Shown piece by piece: positions 544 through 8,140 of a stretch of 20,000 bases of DNA. Position 1 is the stretch's first letter. Every line of letters starts with the position of its first letter. The stretch lies in the IMG/VR virus record IMGVR_UViG_3300025821_000011; one strand, written 5' to 3'. The notes under the pieces were generated by a model. It had not been told where the DNA came from. It saw nothing but the letters and a program-made list of their open reading frames with translations, and did not search any database. Origin of the DNA: an uncultured virus (IMG/VR IMGVR_UViG_3300025821_000011) (lineage: Duplodnaviria > Heunggongvirae > Uroviricota > Caudoviricetes > Crassvirales). The translations under genes and the position numbers were made by a program.

Positions 544-2754
544 TTATCTTAATATTTTAGACGAAGAACCTCTATTGTCATATCTTTTAATTCCTAAATC
601 GTAAACTTTCTTTTGCACTGGACTAACTGGTGAATATAAATTTTTATTACAAGCCATTATAGCAAGTCCTGAACTTATAGAAGCATCATGCTTTGTCCTA
701 TTGTTTATATTAAATTTACCCCAATCTTCTAATGTTCTTTGGAAATACATATCTCCATAACCAGCTTCTGTTTGCCCAACACAAGTTTCTATATAAGATT
801 CTATAGCTGCAGCGTGCGCTTGTTTTATATCCTCACTTGAATTAGGTATTCCACCTATTTCTCTTTCAGTTACAGATAATTTGTTTAATCTTTTATCAGG
901 TCTGTTCATTGAAAAACCTCTATAGCCTCTTCTTTTAAAATGATACAGTAACCTAGGTTTGTTATTTTCAGCAAGTATTGGCATTCCGTAAAATACACAA
1001 GCCATTAATACGTCTTCAAAAAATATCTCAGCGGTTTGTGGTCTAGCTATATATTCTAAAAAGAATCTATTAGGTGGAACATCTTCCATACTAAACTTTG
1101 TTAAACCGTGCAAAGCTCCATTAGATCCTCTTTTATCAACGGTTCCAGATATATCATAACTGTCACACCCGAAGGCACCACAGTGATCGTTACCAGGATA
1201 TTTTACACCGCCTTTTACAACAACTCTATTTTGAAGTCCTACATGAGGAACCCAGCTAACATTAAACCTACCGTTTTTATTTGGTACAAAAACAACCTTA
1301 GTATCTTTGATACCGTTTTCCCACATAAAACTTCCTGTGGTTATTATAGCTGTATTTCTTAAGTCTTCGTTATAATCTATTTGTTCGTATATCTTTGTTA
1401 AATTAAACAGAGATTGTTTTGCTTCGTCTCTAAAAGCATGTTGTTCCGTTCTTGGAAACTGACGATAGTATTCGTTTAAACCATCTTGATCTCCTTTTAA
1501 TCCTTCTACTTCATTACCCCAATAATCAATTACGCCTTGAGTTATTAGCGACCCATCGGGGCCTTCGGTTTGTTTTTTTGGTTTTTCAAATACAGGAAAT
1601 CCATAAGAATCAATGTATCCTTCGTAGTTCCATTCCATAGGTATGAACAAACTATAGAGTCCTGAACGAGTCTGTCCGTTGGCGTTTCTTTTTGTTGCGT
1701 CGGAATCATAATATAATTTTTTAAAATTCTCACCACCTTTATCTAAAGCGTTTGATGTTGATCCCATCATACACTTACCTATAATTCTCGAACCTAGTCT
1801 TAAACAAGTTTTAGTTACCCTCCAGTTGTTTAATATATTTGTTGGTCTTTCCCACTTTCCACTTTCATCGTGTACTAGTAGTTTTAATTTTTCACCATCG
1901 TACGAGTTGTCCCCCGTGTTTTTCCAGTCGATCGTTGTATCGAGACCCGTGATCTCTTGTAGCTTTTCATTGGAGTCAAGTTTTTTACGGGTAAATTTGG
2001 ACGCTGGTACCCTGTATGCAAGTTCCGTCTTCGGCCTGTCCATTCCGTCTTGGACTGGTTTAAAGAAAAAAGGATAGTTGACTGAGATGGGGACGACCTT
2101 ATCAGTAAACATCTTTTTGGCATCTGGCCCGGACTTTGAAAGAATACCAAATCGTGAATCTGTGGATATTGTTGCCTGGTTAACTGTCTCACCTGACGCC
2201 ATGAAAGAGAAACCTGATCGTCTGTTCTTAAGATAACACATTCCGTAGGATCGTACATCTGCTTTACAAGCTTCCCAGAATATAAAGAATAATCTGTTTG
2301 ATTCCCTAAAATCTGGTTGCCCAACATCAATCTTGGACCACTGCAAGTACATGTAGTGAGTACCAGTAATATAAGAAGGCTTGTCTTTGTTATAAAACCA
2401 AAAACCTTCTTCACGCCTTTTAAACTCTGTATCAATGTAGTCATACCATTTTTCTTTAAACTCAACTGGGTATTCATCCCAATCAAATACTGATTTAATT
2501 CTATTTAGTTCTTTTGGATATTCAGAATATTTCCATCTATTTCCATCAAAAGCAACTACGTCATCTTCTTTAGGAAGAGCTATCTTAACACCTTGTATTT
2601 CGTAAACCTCTCCTATTTGACCTGTTCTACTAATAACAACTACGTCATGTTCTTGGTTGTAGCCATACTCCCATTTCTTATACCTATTTAATCTTTTAAA
2701 TATAGTAGGCTTTATATGGTCTTTTAATATTTTTACTAAAGTTTGCTCGTACAT
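544..2754 (-). CDS. terL: Terminase large subunit
   Basis: 736 aa. Walker A-like LKNRRSGFS, Walker B LLVHDESGKW, coupling-motif-like MGST, and RNase H-like nuclease acidic motifs (FGCDSYD, KHDASISSG). Adjacent to the portal gene. Confidence 0.92.
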   Translation of the reverse strand: MYEQTLVKILKDHIKPTIFKRLNRYKKWEYGYNQEHDVVVISRTGQIGEVYEIQGVKIALPKEDDVVAFDGNRWKYSEYPKELNRIKSVFDWDEYPVEFKEKWYDYIDTEFKRREEGFWFYNKDKPSYITGTHYMYLQWSKIDVGQPDFRESNRLFFIFWEACKADVRSYGMCYLKNRRSGFSFMASGETVNQATISTDSRFGILSKSGPDAKKMFTDKVVPISVNYPFFFKPVQDGMDRPKTELAYRVPASKFTRKKLDSNEKLQEITGLDTTIDWKNTGDNSYDGEKLKLLVHDESGKWERPTNILNNWRVTKTCLRLGSRIIGKCMMGSTSNALDKGGENFKKLYYDSDATKRNANGQTRSGLYSLFIPMEWNYEGYIDSYGFPVFEKPKKQTEGPDGSLITQGVIDYWGNEVEGLKGDQDGLNEYYRQFPRTEQHAFRDEAKQSLFNLTKIYEQIDYNEDLRNTAIITTGSFMWENGIKDTKVVFVPNKNGRFNVSWVPHVGLQNRVVVKGGVKYPGNDHCGAFGCDSYDISGTVDKRGSNGALHGLTKFSMEDVPPNRFFLEYIARPQTAEIFFEDVLMACVFYGMPILAENNKPRLLYHFKRRGYRGFSMNRPDKRLNKLSVTEREIGGIPNSSEDIKQAHAAAIESYIETCVGQTEAGYGDMYFQRTLEDWGKFNINNRTKHDASISSGLAIMACNKNLYSPVSPVQKKVYDLGIKRYDNRGSSSKILR
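1884..2486 (-). CDS. Candidate overprinted gene in the +1 frame of terL; putative lipoprotein/secreted protein (possible starts TTG 2486, ATG 2444, GTG 2414)
   Basis: 200 stop-free codons in an AT-rich gene. From GTG 2414 it reads MKKVFGFITKTSLLILLVLTTCTCSG (basic n-region, hydrophobic h-region, Cys). terL codon choice shifts across the interval. Confidence 0.5.
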   Translation of the reverse strand: MIGMNTQLSLKKNGMTTLIQSLKGVKKVFGFITKTSLLILLVLTTCTCSGPRLMLGNQILGNQTDYSLYSGKLVKQMYDPTECVILRTDDQVSLSWRQVRQLTRQQYPQIHDLVFFQSPGQMPKRCLLIRSSPSQSTILFSLNQSKTEWTGRRRNLHTGYQRPNLPVKNLTPMKSYKRSRVSIQRSTGKTRGTTRTMVKN

Positions 2755-3029
2755 TACCTAGATCTCCCTTCTGCAAAACCCCTAAAAGCTTTTTCTCCCG
2801 TAGCTTCTTTTGGTTTGTCATTTAGTTTTTCTTCTTCTTCTTCTATTCTAGTAAGTATTTCAAAGGCATCGAATATAGCTAGTTTTTTTGTAGCTGCAGC
2901 GTTTTTTAATCTGTCAGCAGATATATCATCATCAGAATCAATAATAGCTTCCTTAGCTACCTTAATTAATTCTTCAACTGCTACATGCCCAGCTTGGATT
3001 ATATTCTTCTTCGTTTCCTTTGTGTTCAT
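2754..3029 (-). CDS. Putative terminase small subunit / conserved phage protein
   Basis: 91 aa, helical-looking; stop overlaps the terL ATG (translational coupling). Function inferred from position only. Confidence 0.45.
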   Translation of the reverse strand: MNTKETKKNIIQAGHVAVEELIKVAKEAIIDSDDDISADRLKNAAATKKLAIFDAFEILTRIEEEEEKLNDKPKEATGEKAFRGFAEGRSR

Positions 3030-3579
3030 ACTTAATTACAATATCATTAGATTTCATACAATAAACTCTCTGATCATCTATAATAAAATCCCATTCACTG
3101 CCTGGAGTAAATCCAATCGTGTCCCCTGGGTTGATATTAAGTGCTTTTAACGAACTATTACCGATTTTTAGTATACCAATAAGTTCTTGCTCTTTTTGTG
3201 ACCTTAAAGTGTCTTTGTTTTTCAAAGGCATTACAAAGCATCTGTCGCCAAATGATTTCCAATCCCCGGTATTCTTATACAAATATATTTGATCTGCTGA
3301 ACAAAAATATAAATCATCATTAAAGTATGATCTACTTTTTTTCTTATTACCTCGGATATCATAAAAAACTCTAAATACATTATGATGTATTATTATTATG
3401 TCTCCTTTTTTAATATCTGTTTTAAAAGCTTTTGGAGTTTCAACTACTATAGCTAAATTATTAACTGCTTTAAAGTTTTCAATTTTAGTGTTTAGTATTA
3501 GTGTAACGTCTCCTAGCTTTATTTCGTTGTCATATTTATCACCAAGCGGCTTGACGATAAAATCATATAGACTTCTCAT
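2974..3579 (-). CDS. GroES-like protein with two tandem co-chaperonin-like domains
   Basis: Both halves follow the GroES pattern: SLYDFIVKP...IKKGDIIII...LYFCSADQI and GDRCFVMP...INPGDTIGF...IIDDQRVYCMKSNDIV (compare GroES DRVIV...VKVGDIVIF...IDNEEVLIMSESDIL). Confidence 0.6.
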   Translation of the reverse strand: MRSLYDFIVKPLGDKYDNEIKLGDVTLILNTKIENFKAVNNLAIVVETPKAFKTDIKKGDIIIIHHNVFRVFYDIRGNKKKSRSYFNDDLYFCSADQIYLYKNTGDWKSFGDRCFVMPLKNKDTLRSQKEQELIGILKIGNSSLKALNINPGDTIGFTPGSEWDFIIDDQRVYCMKSNDIVIKYEHKGNEEEYNPSWACSS

Positions 3580-4125: not shown

Positions 4126-4527
4126 TTACTTTTTAAATAGCGGCCCTAGCTTGTCTACTATTTTTTCACCACTTCTACCGATTACATAACCCCCAATACC
4201 TATTTCCAATAAGCTCCAGAATTCTGGTTCTAAAACAGGTGTTATTAAGTGTGCTGATAACTGTGATATGAATTTTGTATATATAATTATAAAACCAAAT
4301 GAAAGCATTAGTATTGGTCTCCAGCTTCTTTGCAACCAATTACCTTTAGCTTCAGCTACAATAATTTCTGTTTGCATTTTCTGCAATTCTAACTGAGCAT
4401 CTTGTAATACTTTAAATATTTGATTTCTAGCATTTAATCTTTCCTCTTCGCTAGTGAATAGTTTATCAACTACATCACCTACTTGTTTAAATACTTTAGT
4501 GCTGAAAAATTCTAATATTTTTTTCAT
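4126..4527 (-). CDS. Putative holin (3TM / GTA-holin-like family)
   Basis: 133 aa; N-terminal coiled coil, signature AEAKGNWLQRSWRP, hydrophobic segments, and C-terminal GGYVIGRSGEK typical of that family. Confidence 0.75.
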   Translation of the reverse strand: MKKILEFFSTKVFKQVGDVVDKLFTSEEERLNARNQIFKVLQDAQLELQKMQTEIIVAEAKGNWLQRSWRPILMLSFGFIIIYTKFISQLSAHLITPVLEPEFWSLLEIGIGGYVIGRSGEKIVDKLGPLFKK

Positions 4528-4835
4528 TATGCTTTTTTATATGCCTCTGCCTCCCAGGGTAAGTTTTTAGCTCCTTCTTTCATTTGAGCTCTTGAATACT
4601 TTTTACCTTTCCAATACACATTGTTGTCATCGTAATCTAAATCACCACGTTTCATTTGATCTATGTGTATCTTTTCGTGGTTTACAACACCTTCTAACAT
4701 AGCTGGTGAAAGATTTTTGTTTACTATAATAGTACCGTTATTATTAGCTTTTCCTAAAACTCCGTCTTCCATATCTACGCTATAAATAGGTGTGTTATCT
4801 ATAGCGTATGGAGGATTTTGTAATTTAAAAGACAT
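4527..4835 (-). CDS. Small zincin-like (HExxH) putative metallopeptidase
   Basis: 102 aa containing VNHEKIHIDQ with a downstream WEAEAY glutamate motif. Confidence 0.6.
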   Translation of the reverse strand: MSFKLQNPPYAIDNTPIYSVDMEDGVLGKANNNGTIIVNKNLSPAMLEGVVNHEKIHIDQMKRGDLDYDDNNVYWKGKKYSRAQMKEGAKNLPWEAEAYKKA

Positions 4836-5298: not shown

Positions 5299-5463
5299 TT
5301 ATTTATCTTTTTTTTCTTCATCTTTTAATCCAACCCATTTGGACAAAGTATAACCTATACTGACTAATAATAGCAGTACTTTTAAATAGTTCTCAATGTT
5401 AGTCATACTAACGGATAATGCGGTTATGTTTAAAGCGTATAGTTTTATGTCTCCTATGTTCAT
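5299..5463 (-). CDS. Small membrane protein, possible second holin/antiholin
   Basis: Manual translation, 54 aa: MNIGDIKLYALNITALSVSMTNIENYLKVLLLLVSIGYTLSKWVGLKDEEKKDK. Hydrophobic segments plus a charged C-tail; start overlaps the upstream stop. Confidence 0.6.
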   Translation of the reverse strand: MNIGDIKLYALNITALSVSMTNIENYLKVLLLLVSIGYTLSKWVGLKDEEKKDK

Positions 5464-5916: not shown

Positions 5917-6340
5917 TGTTTACATTCTTTATAGAAACACTTAGCACTTTATCAGTATAAGTATCCCCCTTCATTATTTTATTTCTTCTACCAGTTGGTA
6001 TATCTTCTGTACCGAGCATCATTCTGTACAACCTACTTATAAGTTGCTTACCTTTAAAGGATACTTTATATATATGATATTTCTGTGTAGTATGATTTCT
6101 TTTTCTCCAAACAACTATCCAACCTTCTTTCAATAATCTATTCCATCTTCTATTATCCCAACTATATGAAAAACAACCTGTTTTAAAATCTTGTTTAGTA
6201 AACATGTCCAAACAATCAAGGTATATTAACAATTCTAAATCAGCGTCGTTTAAATCATTATTTCTGCATGCCCACTTACGTATTATTCTGTAGTGCTTTA
6301 ATAATCCTAATTTTTTAACGTCACTGGCTTCTATTCTCAT
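5900..6340 (-). CDS. Putative winged-helix (MarR-like) DNA-binding protein
   Basis: 146 aa, basic; LNDADLELLIYL...RLLKEGWIVV...YKVSFKGKQL follows a MarR-type wHTH pattern. Confidence 0.5.
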   Translation of the reverse strand: MRIEASDVKKLGLLKHYRIIRKWACRNNDLNDADLELLIYLDCLDMFTKQDFKTGCFSYSWDNRRWNRLLKEGWIVVWRKRNHTTQKYHIYKVSFKGKQLISRLYRMMLGTEDIPTGRRNKIMKGDTYTDKVLSVSIKNVNNDKTR

Positions 6341-6603
6341 AAAACTACAACTATATCTTGCATTTTTATAACTTGATACGGATCACCGTTTATTTCTATG
6401 ATATGACCGGCATGTCTGTCGTAATATATTAAATCACCTTCTTTCATACCAGCATTAATAGCTTCTTCCCCTGGAGATACTACAGATGCTTTAATGTACC
6501 TGATATCTTCTCTTTGTTTTTCAGCTAAAAGTAATCCTCCCTTTGTAGGAGTTATACCTTCTTTTTCTTTCTTTATTATTAAGTTTCTACCTATCGCCTT
6601 CAT
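6337..6603 (-). CDS. groES: Co-chaperonin GroES
   Basis: 88 aa; MKAIGRNLII, mobile loop TKGGLLL, MKEGDLIYY, YQVIKMQDIV. Confidence 0.9.
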   Translation of the reverse strand: MKAIGRNLIIKKEKEGITPTKGGLLLAEKQREDIRYIKASVVSPGEEAINAGMKEGDLIYYDRHAGHIIEINGDPYQVIKMQDIVVVL

Positions 6604-8140
6604 TTGCTCTTAAATTATTAATTACACAATCAGTTGATAATATCGTAGTAGCTACAGACGCAGCGTTTCTTAATGCACTCTTGGTTACCATAAGCGGATC
6701 TATTATTCCTTGATCCACCATATTTACAGGTTTACCTGTTAAAGCGTTTAATCCAATTCCTTCGTCTTGTATATCAGACATTTCTATTCCAGCGTTTTCT
6801 AATATTGTAAAGTAAGGAGCTTGTATTGCTTTTAACAAAACTTTTTCTCCTATATTTTTAGCTATTAGCTTTTGACCTGCATTTAGTAATGCAACACCTC
6901 CACCTGGAACAATACCTTCTTTAACAGCCGCTTTCGTGGCGCAGATAGCATCTTCTACCCTGTCTGTTTTTTCTTTTAACTCTACTTCAGAGTTTGCACC
7001 AACTTTAACCACCGCAATTTTAGCAGTTAGCATTGATAATCTTTTTTCAAGCTTTATAACTTCCCAACTTTTAAGCGTGTTATTTGTAAGCTTTTCTTTT
7101 ATACTACGTATTACATCCTTTATCTTTTCGGATGCCTCAGAGACTGTTATAACAGTGTCCTCGTGAGACGTAACACTTTTTAGACAAGAACCTAAATAAT
7201 CTAAATCAATAGAATCTGCATCATCTCCTAAATCTTCATTAAATATTGTGGCACCTGTTAGTAAAGAAAGGTCTTCAAGAACTTCTCTCTTACTTATACC
7301 GTAAGTTGGAGCGTTAATTACATTAACTTTTAAGTTCCCTTTCTTCTTATTTGTAGCTAGAGTTGATAAAACACCTTCTTCTAAGTCGCCTATTATAAGC
7401 AAAGGTTTGTTGTTTTTTATTACGTACTCCAGCACTTTTTGTATATCTCTTATAGTGTTAACTGGTGATTCCATTATTAACACTAACGGGTTTTCTAATT
7501 CCGCTGTTTTTGTTTGAGGGTTTGTAATGAAATGAGAATTTGTTAAACCTTTGTCATAAGGAACTCCTTCAATTAATTCAGAAACAGTTTTACCGTCACC
7601 GGCAGTTTCCATCATTACAATACCTGTATTATCTACAGATCTAAAAGCGTCTGCTATAATAGATCCTAGTTCATTGTCATTATTTACCGATATAGAAGCT
7701 ATGTGATCTAACATGTTACCTTTAACATCGGTAGCTATAGTATCTAAGTAATCTATAACTTTTTCTACAGCTGAATTTATACCGTCTTTAATTTCTCTAG
7801 AGTTTTTCTTTCCAGAAACAGCATAAGCTTCTTTTAATATAGAGTGAGCTAATACAGTAGCTGTTGTTGTTCCGTCACCGGCTTCTTGTACAGTTTTTCT
7901 AGCAGCTTCTTTTAATAAAGTAGATCCCATGTTTTCTACAGGGTCTAAAAGTATTATTGAATTTGCTACAGTTACACCGTCTTTTGTTATAATAGGGTTA
8001 CCTGCACTGTCTTCTAGCATTACGCATTTACCGCCAGCCCCTAGTGTAGAGCTAACGGCTTTTGCTAGTTTCTCTATACCTTTAAATACTTGATCTCTGG
8101 CGTCATCACCAAAGTTCAAGTTCTTGACAATTCCATTCAT
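6587..8140 (-). CDS. groEL: Chaperonin GroEL (phage-encoded)
   Basis: 517 aa; ITKDGVTVA, AGDGTTTATVLA, KVGANSEVELKEK, GIVPGGG, GIIDP; lacks the GGM tail. Confidence 0.97.
   Translation of the reverse strand: MNGIVKNLNFGDDARDQVFKGIEKLAKAVSSTLGAGGKCVMLEDSAGNPIITKDGVTVANSIILLDPVENMGSTLLKEAARKTVQEAGDGTTTATVLAHSILKEAYAVSGKKNSREIKDGINSAVEKVIDYLDTIATDVKGNMLDHIASISVNNDNELGSIIADAFRSVDNTGIVMMETAGDGKTVSELIEGVPYDKGLTNSHFITNPQTKTAELENPLVLIMESPVNTIRDIQKVLEYVIKNNKPLLIIGDLEEGVLSTLATNKKKGNLKVNVINAPTYGISKREVLEDLSLLTGATIFNEDLGDDADSIDLDYLGSCLKSVTSHEDTVITVSEASEKIKDVIRSIKEKLTNNTLKSWEVIKLEKRLSMLTAKIAVVKVGANSEVELKEKTDRVEDAICATKAAVKEGIVPGGGVALLNAGQKLIAKNIGEKVLLKAIQAPYFTILENAGIEMSDIQDEGIGLNALTGKPVNMVDQGIIDPLMVTKSALRNAASVATTILSTDCVINNLRANEGDR

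What the first reader, a model, noticed from the sequence alone, without database searches (positions are those of the whole stretch)
1884..2486. Hidden gene overprinted on the terminase ATPase domain, with a lipoprotein-like signal peptide
Seen: the +1 frame of terL (same strand) is open for 200 codons. In this frame any NTA codon followed by A/G, or NTG followed by A, creates a stop, and NTA codons are common in this AT-rich genome. Within the interval terL uses otherwise less common codons (AAG GTC GTC CCC ATC; ATC ACG GGT CTC GAT ACA ACG ATC GAC), and NTA codons resume right at the ORF's stop (AAA TTA AAA CTA CTA GTA). From GTG 2414 the product begins MKKVFGFITKTSLLILLVLTTCTCSG: basic n-region, hydrophobic core and Cys at 22/24, like a signal peptidase II substrate, although the lipobox is non-canonical. 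It ends in a very basic Arg/Thr-rich tail. Known: phage lipoproteins can be embedded out of frame (lambda Rz1 inside Rz), but I know of no described case inside terL. Inference: a late-expressed envelope protein, such as a spanin-like lysis factor or exclusion lipoprotein. Two holin-like genes are in the window and no spanin was recognised.
Basis: partly seen in the sequence, partly recalled or inferred. Interest (0 to 1): 0.85.

Follow-up and report, generated by a model that had tools for sequence, protein, structure and literature searches.

The report
Hidden membrane-protein gene inside phage terminase
A second gene, read one base out of step, lies inside the DNA-packaging (terminase) gene of a group of uncultured marine phages; selection has kept it open, and it appears to encode a small membrane-anchored protein with a floppy, positively charged tail whose function is unknown.

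Summary
The +1 frame of terL (window 544-2754, minus strand) is open for 206 codons. In 20,000 synonymous shuffles the longest open run was 177 codons, and 9.8±1.9 stops were expected in the interval.

The open frame is conserved. Of 81 terL genes at 73-100% protein identity, 54 keep it fully open and 8 carry a shorter version. None of 86 more distant terL genes does.

Stop avoidance depends on context. NTA codons make up 0 of 509 where they would create a stop, but 59% where they are harmless. This rules out a regional codon-usage shift.

Within the clade an upstream ATG, a hydrophobic helix and a polar tail composition travel with the open frame. Two four-fold Thr codons are fixed as ACT in 62 of 62.

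The likely product runs from ATG 2444 to the stop at 1884 (186 aa). It has a basic N-terminus, one membrane helix ending in C-T-C-S-G, and a disordered tail (pI 10.8).

The tail shows no residue-level constraint, and 19 of 81 relatives have lost the frame.

The lipoprotein reading fails: 0 of 62 have A/G/S at position -1. The spanin or exclusion role is untested. T7 already annotates nested +1 ORFs (19.2, 19.3) in its terL. No expression data exist.

The parts
544..2754 (-). terL (terminase large subunit), 736 aa; the host gene, in frame 0
   Evidence: ORF. PHROG phrog_6681, E=3e-164. tblastn hits to annotated terL of Flavobacterium, Cellulophaga, Maribacter and Tenacibaculum phages. No Pfam, NCBIfam or PDB sequence match.
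1884..2504 (-). Stop-to-stop open +1 frame: 206 sense codons plus the stop at 1884-1886
   Evidence: terL nt 250-868. Shuffle nulls.
1884..2444 (-). Most likely coding sequence of the overprinted gene: ATG 2444 to TAA 1884, 186 aa. Alternative starts are TTG 2486 and GTG 2414
   Evidence: An in-frame ATG upstream of the helix, with no stop between, is present in 48 of 54 open and 8 of 8 short-form relatives, against 4 of 81 in the sister clade. Many database calls are exactly 186 aa.
2385..2444 (-). Basic N-terminal region (residues 1-20, net charge +4)
   Evidence: Across the family the N-flank net charge averages +2.4 against -0.03 for the C-flank, and is higher in 53 of 62.
2337..2402 (-). 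Hydrophobic helix, residues 15-36 (FGFITKTSLLILLVLTTCTCSG). The most constrained core is terL codons 125-136 (window 2344-2379), with Cys32 at 2349-2351 and Cys34 at 2343-2345
   Evidence: AF2 helix 2-34, pLDDT 56-73. Third positions of terL codons 125, 126, 128, 129 and 131 are T in 54-62 of 62. ACT is fixed in 62 of 62 at the two Thr codons, Leu136 is TTG-type in 59 of 62, and the closed class is mixed at all of these. Synonymous entropy is -0.35 bits in codons 120-139. Core hydropathy is 2.57 in the open class, 0.77 in the closed class and 0.37 in the sister clade.
1887..2333 (-). Polar, basic, probably disordered tail (residues 38-186). Length varies among relatives
   Evidence: pLDDT <50 for residues 39-186. 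Whole protein pI 10.8, with 29 K+R against 7 D+E. terL third-position C is 0.23-0.28 in the open class against 0.09-0.10 in the closed class, only in this part. Family lengths are 117-216 aa.

Best explanation
A real protein-coding gene has been overprinted in the +1 frame of terL. It arose on the stem of one clade of uncultured phages, and all cultured relatives of their terL infect Flavobacteriaceae.

Expression (inferred): it is presumably read from the late mRNA that carries terL, by ribosomes that start independently at an internal AUG (window 2444). Bacteroidota ribosomes do not need a Shine-Dalgarno sequence.

Product in the window: 186 aa, made of a basic N-terminus, one hydrophobic helix ending in Cys-Thr-Cys-Ser-Gly, and a polar, strongly basic tail of about 150 aa with no predicted fold.

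Shown: selection keeps the frame open, keeps the helix hydrophobic, and keeps the tail polar. The tail sequence and length drift freely, and the gene has been lost repeatedly.

Inferred: the helix inserts in the cytoplasmic membrane with the N-terminus inside and the tail outside (positive-inside rule). The protein is then a dispensable late accessory factor acting at the cell envelope, in lysis timing, outer-membrane disruption or superinfection exclusion. The helix would be the specific part, and the tail would work through charge and composition, as in phiX174 E. The stated confidence is for a real, selected coding gene with this architecture. Any particular function is much less certain (about 0.1-0.2 each).
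For: 1. Length. Gene-wide and local synonymous shuffles never or almost never give an open interval.

2. Conservation. 54 of 81 terL at 73-100% identity have no +1 stop in terL codons 113-255, and 8 more carry a shorter ORF of the same kind. Among more distant terL, 0 of 81 sister-clade genes (2-12 stops each, GC 0.29-0.49) and 0 of 5 other cultured phages are open.

3. Context. In the open class, L/I/V codons ending in TA are 0 of 509 before A/G but 328 of 556 (59%) before C/T. Outside the interval the figures are 60% and 64%. Met followed by an A-starting codon is 0 of 284 inside against 122 of 661 outside.

4. Independence. There are 14 groups whose synonymous sites have diverged (median codon identity 0.58, against a permutation baseline of 0.51). 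Each has a local-shuffle P(0) from below 0.0002 to 0.017, and the log10 values sum to -38.

5. Features that travel with the open frame: a start codon, a hydrophobic core and Cys2; fixed ACT codons; and lower synonymous entropy in codons 120-139 only in this class.

6. Composition. A third-position T-to-C/G shift is confined to the tail region and to the ORF class. It lowers virtual L/I/V/F/M from 42% to 27%, which stop avoidance alone does not require.

7. No conserved RNA structure explains the constrained codons (alifold gives none).

8. Closed sequences keep a residual NTA depletion that is specific to the interval (odds ratio 0.30 and 0.45 inside, 0.83 and 0.86 outside). They are scattered on the tree, needing at least 10-11 changes. 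This fits repeated loss.
Against: - There is no evidence of transcription start, translation or peptide.
- Over the ORF as a whole, terL synonymous sites are not more conserved. Identical-codon fraction is 0.499 inside against 0.568 outside for open pairs, and entropy is +0.21 bits inside.
- An OLGenie-like ratio shows no residue-level purifying selection. dNN/dNS is 1.36 [0.82-2.63] for the whole ORF. The helix gives 0.82 [0.34-1.92], against 2.49 in the closed class, which is only a trend.
- AF2 gives no fold beyond the helix (mean pLDDT 43.6).
- No Pfam, PHROG or NCBIfam family matches.
- 19 of 81 close relatives do without the gene.
- The start context is ordinary and lacks the favourable A at -3. 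The window's own genes have A at -3 in 14 of 22.
- The open class was defined by having no stops, so the 0 of 509 is partly tautological. Its weight comes from the 59% control, from the number of diverged lineages, and from 0 of 86 outside the clade.
Confidence: 0.8

Rival explanations
1. Chance or composition. A regional rise in GC3, from mosaic origin or local codon preference in the ATPase domain, removes NTA codons and leaves the +1 frame open with no second gene.
For: GC3 is 0.33-0.53 in terL codons 120-280 against 0.12-0.30 elsewhere. Closed relatives tend to have lower GC, 0.30-0.37. Antisense ORFs in the same interval also become longer in the open class: 17 of 60 and 15 of 60 against 0 of 18.
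Against: NTA use stays at 59% inside the interval wherever it cannot make a stop. A shuffle that keeps local codon usage still expects 2.5-4.5 stops per sequence. The sister clade has higher GC (up to 0.49) and 0 of 81 open frames. Third-position composition in the rest of terL is the same in the open and closed classes.
Confidence: 0.03
2. Trans-frame product. The +1 frame is reached by programmed ribosomal frameshifting from terL, giving a fusion of the terL N-terminus to the helix and tail rather than an independently started protein.
For: The ORF lies on the same strand in the +1 frame. Database proteins of 277-294 aa are fusions of the terL N-terminus to the +1 product or, in P0013, the +1 product running into the terL frame. 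The A-rich run ...GAAAAATGG... and TTT AAA AGG lie just upstream.
Against: The six fused database proteins switch frame at different places, so they look like indel errors or mutants. In at least 13 ORF-bearing relatives a +1 stop sits directly before the ATG. An ATG is kept in 56 of 62 and GTG/TTG in the other 6. The candidate shifty codon 112 is not conserved: third base A34 C8 G12 T8.
Confidence: 0.06
3. The product is a lipoprotein cleaved by signal peptidase II at Cys32 or Cys34, serving as an outer-membrane spanin-like lysis factor or an exclusion lipoprotein.
For: The basic n-region, short hydrophobic core and Cys follow the general plan of a lipoprotein signal. Cys2 needs the less common Leu codon TTG and is kept in 59 of 62, against C-x-C in 6 of 19 closed sequences. 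The nearest language-model clusters are labelled 'Lipoprotein', but at 0.80-0.82, a score that shuffled proteins reach a third of the time. PHROGs found one holin and no spanin among 29 window ORFs.
Against: Position -1 is never A/G/S at either Cys (0 of 62). It is I, L or M in 17 of 62 at Cys1. The 7 sequences with Leu at -1 appear to have terL Phe at this position, so a synonymous TTC could give Ser there; none does (terL Phe inferred from the +1 residues, not checked in the terL alignment). The lipobox rule itself is recalled (PROSITE PS51257 / DOLOP), not run as a tool. The host gene is not an i-spanin. The tail is 150 aa and basic, not a short Pro-rich domain. There is no C-terminal membrane segment.
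Confidence: 0.1
4. Young proto-gene. The frame is translated and mildly selected, for example because a short hydrophobic peptide must be extended to be harmless, but the protein has no specific target.
For: The tail shows no residue-level constraint. Tail length varies from 117 to 216 aa in total. Loss is frequent, 19 of 81. The frame is absent from all 86 more distant terL.
Against: Two four-fold sites are fixed in 62 of 62, and Cys2 and a start codon are kept across lineages with saturated synonymous sites. The directed shift of tail composition points to selection on the product itself.
Confidence: 0.1

Closest known systems
phiX174 lysis gene E nested in scaffold gene D (single-gene lysis proteins in general)
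   Same: Both are same-strand, out-of-frame genes wholly inside an essential morphogenesis gene. In both, the product has a conserved N-terminal membrane helix followed by a basic, poorly conserved tail. The description of E is recalled, not tested here.
   Different: E is about 91 aa, belongs to a small ssDNA phage with no holin, and blocks MraY. This gene is 117-216 aa and sits in a dsDNA phage that has a holin. The charge pattern suggests the opposite topology, N-terminus inside. No lysis activity is known, and no sequence comparison was made.
Lambda Rz1 inside Rz, and T7 18.7 inside 18.5 (embedded o-spanins)
   Same: Both are nested same-strand genes encoding an envelope-directed protein with an N-terminal signal and Cys. 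The T7 case is seen.
   Different: There is no canonical lipobox (0 of 62). The host gene is terL, not the partner i-spanin. The mature part is about 150 aa and basic, not about 40 aa and Pro-rich.
T7 genes 19.2 and 19.3 (nested in gene 19, terL)
   Same: Both are same-strand +1-frame ORFs annotated inside terL (offsets 646 and 1183 from the gene 19 start, both 1 mod 3). Their function is unknown, and lysis has been suggested in print (PMC8365609, passages).
   Different: There is no sequence similarity (BLASTP finds no alignment at E<=100 against 19.2; 19.3 was not compared). They are shorter, at 85 and 57 aa. I did not test them for conservation or stop avoidance.
Overprinted, de novo genes of viruses in general
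   Same: Shared traits are restricted phylogenetic range relative to the host gene, biased composition, predicted disorder, an accessory role and easy loss. These traits are recalled from the overlapping-gene literature, whose review and papers I saw only as search listings and abstract starts.
   Different: Most documented cases are in small RNA or ssDNA viruses. This one lies in a dsDNA phage of about 60 kb (relatives 60-78 kb), where genome compression is not an obvious driver.

Membership tests
Overprinted (nested, out-of-frame) protein-coding gene | Alternative-frame ORF longer than synonymous-shuffle nulls allow | tested here: met
   206 codons against a null maximum of 177 in 20,000 shuffles. 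Local-shuffle P(0) is 36 of 50,000.
Overprinted (nested, out-of-frame) protein-coding gene | Frame kept open in diverged relatives beyond what codon usage predicts | tested here: met
   54 open plus 8 short forms of 81. NTA is 0 of 509 before A/G against 59% before C/T. 14 diverged groups give a summed log10 P of -38.
Overprinted (nested, out-of-frame) protein-coding gene | Reduced synonymous variation of the host gene across the overlap | tested here: inconclusive
   Met only for terL codons 120-139 (-0.35 bits; ACT fixed in 62 of 62). Not met over the tail (+0.2 to +0.43 bits).
Overprinted (nested, out-of-frame) protein-coding gene | Younger than the host gene (narrower distribution) | tested here: met
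   0 of 86 more distant terL are open.
Overprinted (nested, out-of-frame) protein-coding gene | Product is made (ribosome footprints, peptides) | not testable with these tools
   No cultured member of the ORF-bearing clade was found in the phage collection. No expression data were examined.
Bacterial lipoprotein (signal peptidase II substrate) | Lipobox [LVI][ASTVI][GAS]C after a basic n-region and hydrophobic core (rule recalled) | tested here: not met
   Position -1 of Cys1 is T45, I9, L7, M1. Position -1 of Cys2 is T60, I2. None of 62 has A/G/S.
o-spanin (Rz1-like) | Lipoprotein with a short periplasmic domain, paired with an i-spanin gene that it overlaps or adjoins | tested here: not met
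   The host gene is terL. The lipobox fails. The mature part is about 150 aa.
i-spanin (Rz-like) | N-terminal membrane segment plus a helical, coiled-coil periplasmic domain and an o-spanin partner | tested here: inconclusive
   The N-terminal helix is present. AF2 predicts only one low-confidence helix (residues 81-91) in the tail. No partner was recognised among 29 ORFs, but small lipoprotein ORFs were not searched for exhaustively.
u-spanin (T1 gp11-like) | N-terminal lipobox and C-terminal membrane segment | tested here: not met
   The hydropathy profile shows no hydrophobic segment after residue 40.
T7 gene 19.2 / 19.3 | Sequence similarity to the T7 nested ORF | tested here: not met
   BLASTP against 19.2 gives no alignment at E<=100. 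19.3 was not compared.
Terminase large subunit (host gene) | Match to a terL family model | tested here: met
   phrog_6681, E=3e-164, over residues 27-729. Pfam, NCBIfam and PDB sequence searches gave nothing.

The most novel reading that the evidence does not exclude
A dsDNA phage lineage created a new envelope-active protein from nothing by rewriting only the silent positions of its terminase gene. On this reading, the conserved helix with its Cys-x-Cys end targets a host membrane component, as phiX174 E targets MraY, or the cationic disordered tail breaches the outer membrane in place of the spanins that have not been recognised in these phages. The gene's birth point and about ten independent losses are all visible in natural sequences. 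That would make it a rare system in which de novo gene birth by overprinting in a large phage can be dissected.
Probability: 0.15. Interest if true: 0.85.

Novelty: new variant of a known kind. Interest (0 to 1): 0.66.

Why it matters
Annotation pipelines normally do not report genes nested in another frame, so such genes are largely invisible in phage genomes. This case has unusually clean comparative evidence: more than 60 natural carriers, 19 natural losses and 86 non-carrier outgroups.

It shows selection acting first on openness, then on one hydrophobic helix, and then on bulk composition. That is a plausible picture of how a new protein is born.

If the protein acts on the envelope, it could fill the gap left by unrecognised spanins in phages of Bacteroidota.

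It also warns that 'synonymous' recoding of terL, or its use as a neutral phylogenetic marker, is unsafe in this clade.

Tried and rejected
- Gene-content association: I clustered 1,640 ORFs from the window and 80 loci with up to 10 kb of flank, looking for a gene present in ORF-less phages and absent from carriers (a stand-alone replacement). None was found. The only strong association was the +1 ORF itself (60 of 60 against 5 of 18), plus two antisense by-product ORFs. Power is low because most contigs are short.
- OLGenie-like dNN/dNS: intervals are too wide and the control classes show the same bias, so it is not informative for the tail.
- AF2 of the +1 product: only the N-terminal helix was predicted, so no fold search was run.
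- AF2 of terL, meant to place the ATPase domain: mean pLDDT 42 and under 50 from residue 168 on, so it was unusable and no fold search was run.
- ESM Atlas: best hits 0.80-0.82 ('Lipoprotein' clusters), below the level at which shuffled sequences are excluded. I treat it as a lead only.
- Pfam, PHROGs and NCBIfam on the +1 product: nothing.
- Database proteins matching the ORF: 98 hits, unnamed apart from four labelled 'hypothetical protein' by JGI.
- Conserved RNA structure under the constrained codons: none.
- Start-codon context: ordinary, no support either way.
- Literature: three full-text searches listed no paper describing a conserved overlapping gene in terL of Flavobacteriia phages. 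Only listings were seen, apart from PMC4324244 and PMC8365609 (passages) and PMC6847099 (abstract and outline).
- Not available: earlier scan findings and the whole genome.
- Not used: sequencing-run search and read laying. RNA coverage of terL would not separate the two frames.
Full report
**What is in the window.** The window carries a late-gene block of a tailed phage, on the minus strand (PHROGs):
- portal (1-543)
- terL (544-2754, 736 aa; phrog_6681, E=3e-164)
- GroES-like proteins and a GroEL
- a holin (4126-4527)
- tail-fibre and structural proteins

The cultured phages with a related terL infect Flavobacterium, Cellulophaga, Maribacter and Tenacibaculum, at 30-45% identity. The closest named record is an uncultured podovirus, MW202828, at 65%. 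A Flavobacteriia host is therefore inferred.

terL has no Pfam, NCBIfam or PDB sequence match. Placing the finding in the ATPase domain rests on two invariant motifs, K176-x-R-R-S-G-F-S183 and L-L-V-H-D-E297. I read these as Walker A-like and Walker B motifs.

**The observation.** The +1 frame of terL is open from window 2504 to 1887, which is 206 codons, with the stop at 1884-1886. The listed ORF runs from TTG 2486 (200 aa). ATG 2444 and GTG 2414 lie in frame.

Elsewhere in terL the +1 frame has 50 stops, and the +2 frame has 91.

- Gene-wide synonymous shuffles (20,000) gave a mean longest open run of 61 codons (max 177). They expected 9.8±1.9 stops in the interval, never fewer than 2.
- Shuffling only within the interval keeps its already altered codon usage. 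It still expected 4.3 stops, with zero stops in 36 of 50,000 trials.

ATA is 2 of 10 Ile codons inside and 27 of 33 outside. GTC is 4 of 10 Val codons inside and 0 of 32 outside.

**Relatives.** A scan of IMG/VR returned 80 terL loci at 73-94% protein identity, the best of at least 613. I aligned them codon by codon with the window, giving 81 genes.

| Class | Definition | Count of 81 |
|---|---|---|
| open | no +1 stop between terL codons 113 and 255 | 54 |
| mid | 1-2 stops, mostly near codon 250-255, so a shorter ORF of the same kind | 8 |
| closed | 3 or more scattered stops | 19 |

Outside this clade the frame is never open:
- Five other cultured phages (elemoE, Panino, phi13:2, phi38:1, Gundel_1) have 6-11 stops.
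- MW202828 has 7 stops.
- The 80 IMG/VR relatives of MW202828 (63-71% identity to the window, GC 0.29-0.49), together with MW202828 itself, have 2-12 stops. That is 0 of 81 open.

**Why this is not a codon-usage artefact.** In the open class, inside the interval:
- Leu/Ile/Val codons ending in TA are used at 59% (328 of 556) when the next base is C or T, where they cannot make a stop.
- They are used at 0 of 509 when the next base is A or G.
- Outside the interval the two contexts give 60% and 64%.

The zero is partly built into the class definition. The 59% control is not. It implies about 5-6 expected stops per sequence.

Met followed by an A-starting codon forces a TGA in the +1 frame. It occurs 0 of 284 times inside and 122 of 661 outside.

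Synonymous sites are close to saturation among these genes. Median codon identity at identical residues is 0.58, against a permutation baseline of 0.51. Fourteen such diverged groups each give a local-shuffle P(0) from below 0.0002 to 0.017.

**Features that travel with the open frame.**
- *Start codon.* An in-frame ATG upstream of the hydrophobic stretch, with no stop between, occurs in 48 of 54 open sequences (the other 6 have GTG/TTG), 8 of 8 mid, 12 of 19 closed and 4 of 81 sister-clade sequences. It is either the ATG equivalent to window 2444, or an ATG placed directly after a +1 stop four codons later.
- *Hydrophobic core.* Mean Kyte-Doolittle value of the 11-residue core is 2.57 (open), 2.34 (mid), 0.77 (closed) and 0.37 (sister), although the terL peptide there (YITGTHYMYLQW) is conserved in all.
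- *Silent sites behind the core.* The hydrophobicity comes from silent sites of terL. Third positions of codons 125, 126, 128, 129 and 131 are T in 54-62 of 62 ORF-bearing genes. The two four-fold Thr codons (129, 131) are ACT in 62 of 62, and mixed in the closed class.
- *Second Cys.* Leu136 is TTG-type in 59 of 62, which makes the second Cys. The closed class mostly uses TTA, giving Tyr.
- *Entropy.* Synonymous entropy is 0.35 bits below expectation in codons 120-139 in the open class only.
- *RNA structure.* RNAalifold finds no conserved structure there.

**The tail behaves differently.** From codon 140 to 299, terL third positions in the open class shift from T to C and G. C is 0.23-0.28 against 0.09-0.10 in the closed class, and G is 0.18-0.19 against 0.10-0.12. 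The rest of the gene is identical in both classes.

In the +1 frame this shift replaces L/I/V/F/M (42% down to 27%) with S, T, P, R and G. Stop avoidance does not require that change.

The tail sequence itself is not conserved:
- Synonymous entropy is 0.2-0.43 bits above expectation.
- The identical-codon fraction is lower inside than outside, 0.499 against 0.568.
- An OLGenie-like dNN/dNS is 1.36 [0.82-2.63].
- Total length ranges from 117 to 216 aa.

AlphaFold2, with 73 aligned products, predicts a helix for residues 2-34 (pLDDT 56-73) and nothing confident after residue 38.

The window product is 186 aa with pI 10.8, 29 K+R, 7 D+E and no Ala.

**History.** On a terL tree rooted with elemoE and MW202828, open sequences lie on both sides of the deepest split. 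The closed ones are scattered, needing at least 10-11 changes.

Both the basal group of six closed sequences and the other 13 keep an NTA depletion specific to the interval. Odds ratios are 0.30 and 0.45 inside, and 0.83 and 0.86 outside. The sister clade shows no such inside-specific effect, at 0.56 against 0.63.

The simplest reading is one birth on the stem of the clade, followed by repeated loss. Recombination of the interval cannot be excluded.

**How it is made (inferred).** Six fused database proteins of 277-294 aa join terL-frame sequence to the +1 product, five as terL N-terminus then +1 product and one (P0013) the other way round, but their junctions lie at different places, so they look like indels.

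A +1 stop immediately before the ATG in at least 13 relatives, together with the conserved ATG, argues for independent initiation rather than programmed frameshifting.

Bacteroidota ribosomes ignore Shine-Dalgarno sequences and prefer A at -3 (PMC6847099, abstract read). The 2444 start has 45% A upstream but G at -3. That matches terL's own start and differs from 14 of 22 window genes. This is neutral evidence.

**What it does (inferred).** The flank before the helix is more positive than the flank after it in 53 of 62 products, with means of +2.4 and -0.03. This suggests the N-terminus faces the cytoplasm and the tail is exported.

The lipoprotein reading fails the recalled lipobox rule in 62 of 62.

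Spanin classes are not matched. There is no partner gene, no confident coiled coil and no C-terminal membrane segment.

By architecture and evolutionary pattern, the closest analogy is phiX174 E, which has a constrained membrane helix and a basic, replaceable tail. The description of E is recalled.

I commit to a dispensable, late, bitopic membrane protein acting at the envelope, with low confidence in any specific role.

**Known precedents.** T7's RefSeq record annotates genes 19.2 and 19.3 nested in the +1 frame of terL. [quoted passage not shown] T7 19.2 shows no similarity to this product.

Mycobacteriophage Patience has peptide evidence for two embedded out-of-frame ORFs. The passages place one inside gene 91 and point to gene 20 for the other; neither is terL (gene 6) (PMC4324244, passages).

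Three literature searches listed nothing on a conserved overlapping gene in terL of Flavobacteriia phages.

**Verdict.** An overprinted coding gene is well supported by comparative evidence, but its expression has not been shown. The lipoprotein and spanin details are not supported. The mechanism of origin is a known kind, while the gene family and its location are new.

Noticed in passing
window 6587-8140, 6337-6603 and 2974-3579 (all minus strand): The phage encodes a GroEL-like chaperonin (phrog_5725, E=8e-134). It also has two GroES-like proteins, one of which is a 201-aa form.
   Followed up: no
window 4527-4835 (-), directly downstream of the holin 4126-4527 in the direction of transcription: A 102-aa ORF containing an H-E-K-I-H (HExxH-like) motif. 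It matches only PHROGs of unknown function and could be a small metallopeptidase or the missing lysin.
   Followed up: partly
window 5299-5463 (-): A 54-aa ORF with one hydrophobic segment and a charged C-terminus (holin-like shape).
   Followed up: no
window about 1826-2493 (+), antisense to the finding: Antisense ORFs of 50-85 aa lie in the same interval. Related antisense ORF clusters are seen in 17 of 60 and 15 of 60 ORF-bearing loci and in 0 of 18 closed ones. They are most simply a by-product of the altered third positions.
   Followed up: partly
terL codons 160-299 (window about 1857-2274): In ORF-bearing genes, terL-synonymous differences are more frequent here (0.61 per site) than elsewhere in terL (0.39) or in closed genes (0.47). 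This could be relaxed codon bias or diversifying selection on the tail. It is unexplained.
   Followed up: partly
P0003, P0009, P0012, P0013, P0025, P0085 (database proteins): Metagenome gene calls of 277-294 aa that switch between the terL frame and the +1 frame at different positions. They are probably indel errors that become long ORFs only because the +1 frame is open.
   Followed up: partly
terL, whole gene (window 544-2754): This terL family is invisible to Pfam, NCBIfam and PDB sequence searches. It folds poorly in AF2 with 31 sequences (mean pLDDT 42), and only residues 1-140 are confident.
   Followed up: partly
L088 717-974 and 1254-1427 (T7 NC_001604 38016-38273 and 38553-38726): T7 genes 19.2 and 19.3 both sit in the +1 frame of terL. 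The context-specific stop-avoidance test used here could show whether they are real genes.
   Followed up: no
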